Positions 1-39,041 of a DNA stretch of 64,000 bases are shown here, one piece after another. The translations under genes and the position numbers were made by a program. The stretch covers positions 5,022,001 through 5,086,000 of the forward strand of contig OX597831.1 in assembly GCA_951406725.2 (NCBI GenBank). Reading direction: 5' to 3'. The notes below the pieces were generated by a model. The model was given only the letters and a program-made list of their open reading frames with translations, had not been told where the DNA came from and made no database searches. How positions within the stretch are numbered: the first letter of the stretch is position 1; the number at the start of each line of letters is the position of its first letter. Origin of the DNA: Octopus vulgaris. Lineage: Eukaryota.

Positions 1-390
1 TAAAACCACTTCGGTTCTGCTTTGTTGTGTGCGTTTCGTTTGTTGTTACTCCTGTCTAGGTTTTGTTTAATTCCGTTGGGTAGATCGAAAAACAATCCCC
101 ACTACTTCACTTTCGTTTTGTTGTTTGGATTTGGTTTAGAGTTCCTCCTGTCTAGTTTTAGTTTAGTTCAGTGGGGTAGATCGAAAAACAATCCCCACTA
201 CATCAGTTTCGTTTTGTTGTTTGGGTTTGGTTTATCCTTCCTCCTGTCTAGTTTTTGTTTAGTTCAGTGGGGTAGATCGAAAAACAATCCCCACTACATC
301 AGTTTCGTTTTGTTGTGTGCGTTTCGTTTATCATTCATCCTGTCTAGTTTTTGTTTAGTTCAGTGGGGTAGAGTGAAAAACAATCCCATA
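1..390. repeat. Tandem minisatellite, 96-bp unit, about 4 copies, probably continuing beyond the window start
   Basis: CCTGTCTAG recurs at 51, 147, 243 and 339 (period 96). The 32-aa periodicity of ORF 22..582 follows from this. Confidence 0.9.
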
Positions 391-23229: not shown

Positions 23230-24127
23230 TCTATAAGCATAAGGCCTGAAATTTTGAAGAAAGTTCTAGTTGATTACATCGAATCCAGTGCTCAACGAGT
23301 TCTTTATTTTATCGACCCCCATCGAAGGATAAACAGCAAAATAGACCTGCGATGGAATTTGAACTCAGAGCGTAAAGCCGGAACTAAAAGCGCGAAGCAT
23401 TTTGTTCTGTGTAGTAATGTTTCTTATTTCTTTATTGCCCACAAGGGGCTAAACATAGAGGGGGACAAACAAGGACAGACAAACGGATTAAGTCGATTAT
23501 ATCAACCCCAGTGCGTAACTGGTACTTAATTTATCGACCCCGAAAGGATGAAAGGCAAAGTCGACCTTGGCGGAATTTGAACTCAGAACATAAAGACAGA
23601 TGAAATACTGCTAATCATCTCACCCAGCGTGCTAACGTTTCTTATTTCTTTATTGCCCACAGGGGGCTAAACATAGAAGGGACAAACAAGGATAGACAAA
23701 CGGATTAAGTCGATTATATCGACACCAGTGCGTAACTGGTACTTATTTAATCGCCCCCAGTGCGTAACTGGTACTTAATTTATCGACCCCGAAAGGATGA
23801 AAGGCAAAGTCGACCTTGGCGGAATTTGAACTCAGAACGTAAAGACAGATGAAATACTGCTAATCATCTCACCCGGCGTGCTAATGTTTCTTATTTCTTT
23901 ATTGCCCACAGGGGGCTAAACATAGAGGGGACAAACACGGACAGACAAACGGATTAAGTCGATTATATCGACCCCAGTGCGTAACTGGTACTTATTTAAT
24001 CGTCCCCATTGCGTAACTGGTACCTATTTAATCGACCCAGAAAGGATGAAAGGCAAAGTCGACCTTGGCGGAATTTGAACTCAGAACATAAAGACAGATG
24101 AAATATTGCTAAGCATCTCACCCGTCG
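23230..24127 (-). mobile_element. SINE family B head-to-tail concatemer (three young units plus one older unit)
   Basis: Units start near 23420, 23638 and 23887 with no spacer DNA. Confidence 0.9.
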
Positions 24128-24273
24128 TAGAGAAATACACATTGGCTAATGTGCCCTGAACTTCTGTAGATAACAAAAAGTGTTACGGCTGAAAACCATT
24201 TGATTACATGCCTACTGAATTAGTGCAAGCATGGGCCTAAAATACTATTACTAAAATACTACTACTTAAATAT

Positions 24274-29624: not shown

Positions 29625-29680
<56 letters not shown>

Positions 29681-29712
29681 TTTATTTTAAGCAGCAGAAA
29701 ATTCAACAAAAT

Positions 29713-29750
29713 CTGTTACTCTGAGTTTCTCGTTGCCGTTCATCAGACAA
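29713..29750 (-). ncRNA. Type I hammerhead ribozyme motif
   Basis: Minus strand reads UUGU-CUGAUGA-A-CG(GCAA)CG-A-GAA-ACUC(A)GAGU-A-ACAG. Confidence 0.65.
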
Positions 29751-29810
29751 AACTGTCTGATGAACGGCAACGAAAACTCAGAGTAACAGATTTTGTTGAA
29801 TTTTCTGCTG

Positions 29811-29848
29811 CTGTCTGATGAACGGCAACGAGAAACTCAGAGTAACAG
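29811..29848 (+). ncRNA. Type I hammerhead ribozyme motif
   Basis: CUGU-CUGAUGA-A-CG(GCAA)CG-A-GAA-ACUC(A)GAGU-A-ACAG, with stem I CUGU/ACAG and a GUA cleavage triplet. Confidence 0.7.
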
Positions 29849-29950
29849 ATTTTGTTGAATTTTCTGCTGCTTAAAATAAAGCATATTACTCTACCACTGG
29901 TATTTGAGTACTCTTTTTTCCACCTTGTTTCACATTTATGTGTTTACTCC

Positions 29951-30010
<60 letters not shown>

Positions 30011-38570: not shown

Positions 38571-38834
38571 TGAGAATATATAAAATAATGTATATATATA
38601 TTTGCACATAAGGTCTGCAAATCTAACGGAGGCCGCGAAAACACTATTAGATCCATAAAGTGCAGTTCTCGGTGGTTCAAATATGCAATTTATGTGGGAT
38701 TCTTTTTAAAACATTACCTTGTTTAAAAAGCCACGTAAGACACAATGATAGATCTAAGGTGTTTAGAACAAAAGATGGTCAGACTCTGCTTAAGGACTAG
38801 ATAGCTACCATATATATATATATATATATATATG

Positions 38835-39035
38835 TAGGTCCCGGGTTGATTCGGGGTTAACCACAGTAAGTAAGGTACTCAATACATAGCAGAGTAAAAT
38901 TAATTTATTATATAGAAGGAGCTTCTACAGGACTAGTACTGTTTCATTCAAGAGAAATCTTCAGGAAGCTTCAGGAGCTTCCTGAAGATTTCTCTTGAAT
39001 GAAACAGTACTAATCCTGTAAACTCCTTCTATATA

Positions 39036-39041
<6 letters not shown>
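38835..39041 (-). mobile_element. Penelope-like terminal repeat with inverted duplication
   Basis: 38903-38970 is an imperfect reverse complement of 38976-39041. Both arms carry a hammerhead, and (TA)n flanks both sides. Confidence 0.7.
38920..38970 (-). ncRNA. Type I hammerhead ribozyme, the best-formed copy in the window
   Basis: Minus strand reads AGCUUC-CUGAAGA-UUUC(UCUU)GAAU-GAA-ACAG(UACUAGUC)CUGU-A-GAAGCU: 6-bp stem I, 4-bp stem III, GUA triplet. Confidence 0.75.

What the first reader, a model, noticed from the sequence alone, without database searches (positions are those of the whole stretch)
38835..39041. Well-formed type I hammerhead ribozyme in an inverted duplication inside (TA)n
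Seen: minus strand 38920-38970 folds as AGCUUC-CUGAAGA-[U-UUC(UCUU)GAA-U]-GAA-[ACAG(UACUAGUC)CUGU]-A-GAAGCU. It has the complete conserved core, a GUA cleavage site, a 6-bp stem I and a self-complementary ACUAGU in loop III. Stem II starts with a non-canonical U-U pair. An inverted sister copy (38974-39026, +) has lost 2 nt from the 3' strand of stem I. AATAAA follows both copies. Established: Penelope-like elements carry type I hammerheads in their terminal repeats and often leave inverted 5' duplications. Inference: this is a short non-coding, ribozyme-bearing mobile unit (Penelope terminal repeat or retrozyme-like) that standard annotation would miss.
Basis: partly seen in the sequence, partly recalled or inferred. 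Interest (0 to 1): 0.85.

Follow-up and report, generated by a model that had tools for sequence, protein, structure and literature searches.

The report
Hammerhead stump of Hydra-clade Penelope element
This 208-base hairpin in a TA repeat is the cut-short, two-armed end of a young, very abundant Penelope-type jumping gene whose full-length, reverse-transcriptase-coding parent lies in the same genome; it carries a real hammerhead-ribozyme motif (cutting untested) and a second small conserved RNA hairpin that likely marks where copying starts.

Summary
The hammerhead motif and inverted sister are there (insertion 38834-39041). It is not an independent retrozyme. It is a 5'-truncated, head-to-head insertion of a young Hydra-clade Penelope-like element: 4,462 exact tail ends, and a full-length parent with an intact 713-aa telomerase-like RT + GIY-YIG ORF in G000. 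In 59 of 59 short two-armed copies one arm ends with a 69-nt tail and the other without. Arms meet at the first base of hammerhead stem I (39 of 120 arms), 29 nt behind a TATA box, not at the cleavage site. So the stumps are likely run-off copies of the 5' end of uncut RNA. A bulged GCUC...GAGCAC hairpin, which my searches did not find in print, follows the hammerhead in 50 of 73 hammerhead copies of distant relatives and lies between the two end sites. Two retrozyme-like arrays (277, 333 bp) of this family look like single insertions. Ribozyme activity is untested and the monomer is predicted to misfold. The scan has noted similar Penelope stumps in other genomes. Known kind, new member, one new-looking cis-element.

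The parts
38834..39041 (.). Whole two-armed insertion (208 bp): tail-bearing arm on minus, tail-less arm on plus, head to head
   Evidence: ends match element positions +137 and +68 (+1 = 38970)
38920..38970 (-). Type I hammerhead motif (+1..+51); predicted cleavage after GUA, between 38926 and 38925
   Evidence: subfamily changes only at N7, loop II, loop III
38903..38909 (-). AATAAAT, ending at +68: the site where tail-less arms join (TA)n
   Evidence: (1,523 exact ends)
38875..38895 (-). Conserved bulged hairpin ACUC-UGC(UAU)GUA-UU-GAGU-AC (clade consensus GCUC...YY-GAGCAC); inferred RT/EN positioning element
38834..38902 (-). 69-nt 'tail' (+69..+137); in the parent it runs on to the ORF start at +183
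   Evidence: 4,462 exact tail ends
38971..38975 (.). 5-nt junction spacer between the two +1 positions; a non-genomic G precedes +1 of the plus arm
38976..39041 (+). Inverted tail-less arm (+1..+68) with deletions at +46 and +49 and G37A
   Evidence: the same deletions recur in other hairpin arms
38810..38833 (.). (AT)12 left flank, target microsatellite
   Evidence: filled versus empty site in L061
39042..39073 (.). (AT)16 right flank, target microsatellite

Best explanation
The locus is a 5'-truncated, head-to-head insertion of the terminal repeat of a young Hydra-clade Penelope-like retroelement into a (TA)n tract, likely made when the element's RT/GIY-YIG protein primed both cut target strands at two fixed internal sites of its RNA and both copies ran off the RNA's 5' end. 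Shown: the parent element and its ORF, the copy number, the two fixed ends (+137/141 and +68) in strict one-of-each polarity, the pile-up of arm starts at +1, TATAAA at -29, and a conserved bulged hairpin between the two ends. Inferred: the endonuclease cuts both strands of (TA)n; one 3' end starts cDNA about 41 nt behind the hairpin and the other about 7 nt in front of it, the hairpin positioning the protein; the RNA is capped at +1 and not yet cut by the ribozyme; the two run-off cDNAs join through 0-4 nt of microhomology (AGCU palindrome, or TC/GA with a cap-templated C). Long copies would arise from tandem read-through or circular RNA that carries the 3' UTR upstream of +1. The ribozyme likely acts as a dimer or with protein help, to cut multimeric RNA to unit length, and would not be needed to make this stump. 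The stump itself is likely a dead end. Identity about 0.95; this mechanism about 0.6.
For: Parent: tandem 5,193-bp units in L061 with hammerhead, tail, ORF and long UTR. Intact 713-aa ORF in L103 and a 722-codon open frame in L237. The model (pLDDT 89) has telomerase RTs as its six best PDB matches. Hydra motifs are present. Youth: 40 of 40 scored hits are 100% identical over 138-141 nt; 1,085 exact 61-mers. Polarity: 59 of 59 two-armed copies; 0 of 30 loci picked by the tail-less end have a second tail-less end within 1.5 kb, 22 of 30 have a tail end. Arm starts: 39 of 120 at +1, 71 of 120 at +1..+5, 8 upstream of +1. Base before +1 genome-wide: T (genomic) 2,758, A 1,155, G 846, C 112; 84 of the first 100 A matches are perfect AGCT palindromes (my count of the list). 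ORF-bearing arms end at either +68 or +141. In vitro a Poseidon PLE cleaves and extends both strands, starts RT at two internal sites that bound the tail, and uses uncleaved RNA (PMC11167929). Hairpin: 50 of 73 hammerhead copies versus 72 of 2,310 random windows; upper stem 2.86 bp versus 0.65 shuffled, pyrimidine 2-nt bulge in 36 of 36; GC>AU double change in both G000 families. TA-runs after relatives' hammerheads fall before it (7 of 14 rows) or 92-112 nt out (6 of 14).
Against: No RNA 5' end, cap or cleavage was observed; the runs are contigs only guessed to be RNA. The G before +1 can also come from the partner arm by microhomology. 18 of the 39 arm starts at +1 come from 9 perfect palindromes, where +1 is the edge of the palindrome. 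The two arms nearly always share subfamily markers (A34T 14 both, 41 neither, 1 discordant; private T15C in both arms of L157), which a fold-back copy predicts as well. A TATA-like word upstream is found in only 11-12 of 34 relatives. L103 has two tail-less ends, +68 and +63. The lower-stem letters of the hairpin were part of the search pattern, and relatives are not independent.
Confidence: 0.72

Rival explanations
1. Same parent element, but the second arm is a fold-back copy: one cDNA snaps back on itself at its 3' end (or an antisense RNA self-primes, as proposed in PMC3846280) and is copied to the +68 site, where it joins the other target strand.
For: Arms agree in subfamily and private variants (41 of 42 palindromic pairs agree at N7 in the list). 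The common junction GGA-AGC-TCC fits a 3-nt loop.
Against: Zero-spacer palindromes (9 of 60 junctions) cannot be a simple loop. The tail-less arm is often far longer than the tail arm, or carries the ORF (L124, L147), which a copy of the first cDNA cannot be. Both strands are extended in vitro (PMC11167929).
Confidence: 0.2
2. The 208-bp hairpin is a non-autonomous retrozyme or MITE-like unit that is itself transcribed, self-cleaved and recopied as a whole.
For: Very high copy number. The perfect-palindrome junction recurs. Retrozyme-like arrays of this family exist.
Against: Junctions vary widely among otherwise identical copies. 45 of 105 tail-bearing loci are not short two-armed units, and most run into the parent's UTR. 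The TATA box is missing and the -103.7 kcal/mol hairpin buries both ribozymes.
Confidence: 0.05
3. The inversion is a long-read fold-back or assembly artefact on a single truncated copy.
For: Deletions at +45..+50 occur in 21 of 114 hairpin arms and 0 of 50 long-copy arms, and are not listed for short-read contigs, so some letters in these hairpins are probably miscalled.
Against: The arms end at different fixed sites, the flanks beyond are unrelated, spacers vary, and a short-read contig of run X1 shows the inverted arm joined at +1 (loose end before 3816).
Confidence: 0.03

Closest known systems
Hydra clade of C-terminal EN+ Penelope-like elements (Craig et al. 2021, PMC8557442; section 11 read whole, passages, supplement searches)
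   Same: RWK, DKT, CxCX5C linker, no CCHH, CxxC and CxH motifs, (TA)n targeting, canonical hammerhead, inverted 5'-truncated copies.
   Different: Unit is 5.2 kb with a long microsatellite-like UTR (described Hydra elements are generally <3 kb). Tail is 69 nt (30-40 bp described). The hammerhead differs from that of Hydra-1_Obim in File S2. The conserved hairpin is visible in that paper's consensus sequences but I found no mention of it in the passages I read.
PLE insertions with inverted pLTR and optional tail (Arkhipova et al. 2013, PMC3846280, passages; Cervera and De la Pena 2014, PMC4209133, parts 1-2 of 4)
   Same: Head-to-head inverted pLTRs, palindromic junctions, tail on one arm, TATA/Inr in the pLTR, hammerhead pairs on opposite strands, palindromic loop III.
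   Different: Here the polarity is counted (59 of 59) and the junction sits at the first base of stem I. Stem III has 4 bp rather than the minimal form. Their antisense self-priming model fits less well.
Poseidon PAc in vitro system (Frangieh et al. 2024, PMC11167929, parts 1-2 of 4)
   Same: Two internal RT start sites bounding the tail, both strands extended, AT-rich targets, ribozyme cleavage not needed, protein-assisted ribozyme.
   Different: Other clade; its start sites lie in an AC-rich stem-loop inside the ORF, here they lie in the 5' UTR around a GCUC/GAGCAC-type hairpin.
Non-LTR retrozymes (Li, Clavereau, Pollet 2026, 10.64898/2026.07.22.740005, parts 1 and 3 of 5; supplements closed)
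   Same: Type I hammerhead derived from a PLE pLTR; the 277- and 333-bp arrays of this family meet their tandem definition.
   Different: The window copy is an inverted pair, not a head-to-tail array. The arrays here look like single two-armed insertions rather than local expansions.

Membership tests
Type I hammerhead ribozyme | CUGANGA / GAAA / NUH core with three stems, open stem I | tested here: met
Type I hammerhead ribozyme | Conservation of core and stems over loops | tested here: met
   Changes shared by 2 or more of 30 ORF-bearing loci lie at N7, loop II (2) and loop III only, p=0.003 uncorrected for relatedness; one single-locus change in stem II. Sense-strand motif in 56 of 77 related loci versus 2 antisense.
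Type I hammerhead ribozyme | Match to an Rfam hammerhead model | tested here: not met
   No hammerhead family at 38920-39026 at E<=1
Type I hammerhead ribozyme | Mg2+-dependent self-cleavage | not testable with these tools
   Active fold predicted at 0.024; loop III dimer -15.2 kcal/mol versus -1.4 for the monomer hairpin
Penelope-like element, EN+ | Single ORF with telomerase-like RT and C-terminal GIY-YIG | tested here: met
   P0001, 713 aa, YRDD and LVY..YIG; best fold matches are TERTs. Pfam gave no RT or GIY-YIG hit on P0001 itself; GIY-YIG hits on homologues P0038 and P0002, 1 of 33 alignment members.
Penelope-like element, EN+ | pLTR with hammerhead, partial tandems, inverted truncated copy, tail on one end | tested here: met
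Hydra clade | RWK, DKT, CxCX5C, CxxC, CxH; CCHH absent | tested here: met
   RWR38, DKT116, CNCHDKTTC567, CDLC667, CMH695; one Cys between GIY and YIG equivalents
Hydra clade | (TA)n insertion preference | tested here: met
   84 of 84 parsed tail ends run into AT repeats; filled and empty site in L061
Hydra clade | Placement in the Hydra clade of an RT tree with reference sequences | not tested
   Reference sequences were only read in the supplement; no tree was built
Non-LTR retrozyme | At least two head-to-tail units, each with a complete hammerhead | tested here: not met
   Window copy is head-to-head; met by the arrays L109 and L110 elsewhere
Non-LTR retrozyme | Circular RNA intermediate | not testable with these tools
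   Contigs only; no joints listed

The most novel reading that the evidence does not exclude
Hydra-clade Penelope elements carry an undescribed, clade-wide RNA element, a GCUC/GAGC stem with a two-pyrimidine bulge and a 3' AC, that positions the telomerase-like RT so that each cut DNA strand starts at its own site on either side of it. The stumps are strong-stop-like run-off copies of a capped RNA whose first base is the first base of the ribozyme. Retrozyme arrays are born in one step when the same two-strand priming meets a small ribozyme-made circle.
Probability: 0.4. Interest if true: 0.7.

Novelty: new member of a known kind. Interest (0 to 1): 0.42.

Why it matters
The locus alone is an ordinary Penelope stump. 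The family is useful: thousands of near-identical young insertions, an intact ORF and fixed end sites make the open PLE mechanism (origin of tail, inversion and pLTR; role of the hammerhead) testable. The conserved hairpin gives a specific mutagenesis target for RNA recognition by the closest relatives of telomerase RT. The two arrays link retrozymes to a parent PLE inside one genome.

Tried and rejected
Chance motif: rejected. miRNA precursor: Rfam hits lie below gathering scores and reflect only the hairpin. Ribozyme cleavage defining the template's 5' end: arms do not pile at +46; only L171 (+44) and L172 (+49), single-armed, end near it among 120 sampled loci. The 12 arm starts at +47..+50 are a parsing failure at double deletions (one search aligns through them). 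Deletions at +46/+49 as a scar of a cleaved and religated RNA: not supported, since long copies pass the same site with 0 of 50; sequencing error in hairpins or a hairpin-specific repair scar remain open. Spliced template (CTAAT ... TAG|CTTCC resembles a 3' splice site): no common exon sequence precedes +1; some run contigs have long unrelated sequence before +1, left open. Programmed frameshift: many copies break at a C-run, but contigs of all four runs carry one more C there and L103 and L237 are open, so it is likely an assembly error. Back-splicing origin of the arrays: unit joints show no GT/AG. Expression: no RNA holder listed. PDB sequence search: nothing significant. Nematis or Neptune membership: rejected on motifs.

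Full report
Numbering: +1 is the A of AGCUUC (window 38970, minus strand); +n = 38971-n.

Observation. The motif is as described. A type I descriptor finds three hits in the window: this one and two near 29.7 kb. 100 resampled windows give 0 at the strict setting. The insertion spans 38834-39041 between (AT)12 and (AT)16, with arms 98% complementary. Rfam has no hammerhead hit here. The monomer is no more stable than shuffles. The active fold has probability 0.024, with stems I and III likely and stem II weak; loop III favours a dimer.

Family. In G000 (2.8 Gb; window at C18:5,022,001) 40 of 451 candidates were scored. All 40 are 100% identical over 138-141 nt and all have a second, inverted match. 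Exact counts: 1,085 for a 61-mer, 4,462 tail ends into (TA)n, 1,523 tail-less ends of one exact form (this junction is variable, so the two counts are not comparable). The host looks like an octopus from my recall of its repeats; this was not tested.

Parent. L061 holds two tandem 5,193-bp units: hammerhead, AATAAAT (+62..68), tail, ATG at +183, ORF, long low-complexity UTR, TATAAA at -29. 47 places continue from the tail towards the ORF: 12 dispersed and 35 in two arrays. Of the 12, one (L103) has an intact 713-aa ORF; L237 has a 722-codon frame. The common break at a C-run is likely an assembly error, since contigs of four runs have one more C. The predicted fold (pLDDT 89) matches telomerase RTs in its six best hits. 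Motifs fit the Hydra clade as defined in section 11 of PMC8557442. 1,081 relatives at E<=1e-20 were found among 8,000 scored; the best 120 listed are mostly 37-44% identical. No tree was built.

Anatomy of insertions. I sampled 90 of the first 100 listed 61-mer places and the first 30 tail-less ends. One search dropped 7 duplicate or overlapping loci (113 left; 105 with a tail arm; 60 two-armed). One search dropped 2 more complex loci. All 59 two-armed copies there have one tail and one tail-less end. L103 is an exception among long copies. Arm starts: 39 of 120 at +1, 71 at +1..+5, 8 upstream; 12 were misparsed. Before +1 stand G (20) or A (19, of which 18 in perfect palindromes). Genome-wide: T 2,758, A 1,155, G 846, C 112. 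The stronger ACUAGU palindrome, which RT meets first, is rarely the junction (L160; L046, L060 and L186 nearby). I infer a template end at +1, 29 nt behind TATAAA. The extra G fits a reverse-transcribed cap or a non-templated C but is confounded by microhomology. Arms pass through the cleavage site, so templates are uncut or religated. Arms share subfamily markers with one discordant pair in 56 at +34. A stump sits in the parent's own UTR (TA)n in one L061 unit and the other unit is empty: (AT)14+12 versus (AT)17.

Ribozyme selection. Among 30 ORF-bearing loci, shared changes in the 51-nt motif fall only at N7, loop II and loop III. Of 77 metagenome loci of related proteins, 56 have a sense hammerhead and 2 an antisense one, with freely varying but paired stems.

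A second conserved element. 50 of 73 of those hammerhead copies are followed within 110 nt by RCTC...GAGYAC, versus 72 of 2,310 random windows. Among 36 distinct interiors all end in a two-pyrimidine bulge. The upper stem averages 2.86 bp versus 0.65 in 1,000 shuffles (maximum 1.25), and its first pair is UA in 19 and CG in 14. Both G000 families carry a GC>AU double change in the lower stem (30 of 40 available sequences aligned). In both, the tail ends 41 nt behind the AC and the tail-less end lies 6-7 nt in front of the stem. In relatives, TA-runs start 31-44 nt after the cleavage site (7 of 14 rows; L264 may not be an end) or 92-112 nt after it (6 of 14; 31-43 nt behind GAGCAC in the 5 with a matched hairpin); one row is a spurious motif. 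The element is visible in published Hydra consensus sequences and once in a non-Hydra part of that supplement. I did not find it described in six literature searches or in earlier findings. Subscription papers, Repbase and bioRxiv supplements were not available and may bear on this.

Arrays. L109 (277-bp unit, -38..+239, 14 matches) and L110 (333-bp unit, -88..+246, 21 matches) each have two multimeric arms head to head, with one tail and one tail-less end in (TA)n. The exact search found no other array. This fits copying of a small circle, but a missing source array cannot be excluded.

Mechanism and comparison. The simplest reading joins these data with the in vitro PAc results (PMC11167929): both strands primed at two internal sites, cDNAs running off at +1 and joining by microhomology. 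Fold-back priming is the main rival. Inverted pLTRs, tails and hammerheads are known (PMC3846280, PMC4209133, PMC8557442), and earlier agents of this scan report similar stumps in other genomes. What I read: PMC8557442 abstract, passages, section 11, supplement search passages; PMC11167929 and PMC4209133 parts 1-2 of 4; the 2026 preprint parts 1 and 3 of 5; PMC3846280 passages.

Verdict. Real feature, new member of a known kind, interest 0.42. The hairpin and the one-step arrays are the parts worth following.

Noticed in passing
window 29675-29952: Same architecture from a second Hydra-clade family: inverted tail-less arm (29675-29749), an extra 58-nt partial unit, a full hammerhead arm and a 71-nt tail in (TA)n. 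It matches 100% the leader of a 727-codon RT+GIY-YIG frame with many open copies in G000.
   Followed up: yes
L109 (G000:C2:64,628,300-64,632,200) and L110 (G000:C5:37,481,400-37,489,300): Retrozyme-like arrays of 277- and 333-bp units from this family, each shaped as one two-armed insertion.
   Followed up: partly
L061:1523-1714: A stump of this family inserted into the (TA)n of its own parent's UTR; the neighbouring tandem unit shows the empty site.
   Followed up: yes
element +45..+50 in hairpin copies: Single-base deletions at +46 and +49, just behind the cleavage site, in 21 of 114 hairpin arms and 0 of 50 long-copy arms; cause unresolved.
   Followed up: partly
L100:3795-3818 (element -22..+2): CTAAT ... 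TTCTTGTTAAATAG resembles a branch point and 3' splice site at the 5' end of stem I, as reported for D. virilis Penelope in PMC4209133; contigs of three runs have long unrelated sequence before +1.
   Followed up: partly
L233, L234, L235: Further Hydra-type ORFs in G000 (about 45% identity) with GAGCAC words upstream but no hammerhead core in the 420 nt examined.
   Followed up: no
L052/L053 (G000:C1:40,703,000-40,703,500): Two insertions of this family tail to tail in one (TA)41 tract.
   Followed up: no
window 23506-24128 and 21-387: Tandem repeats of 249 bp (2.5 copies) and 96 bp (3.8 copies).
   Followed up: no
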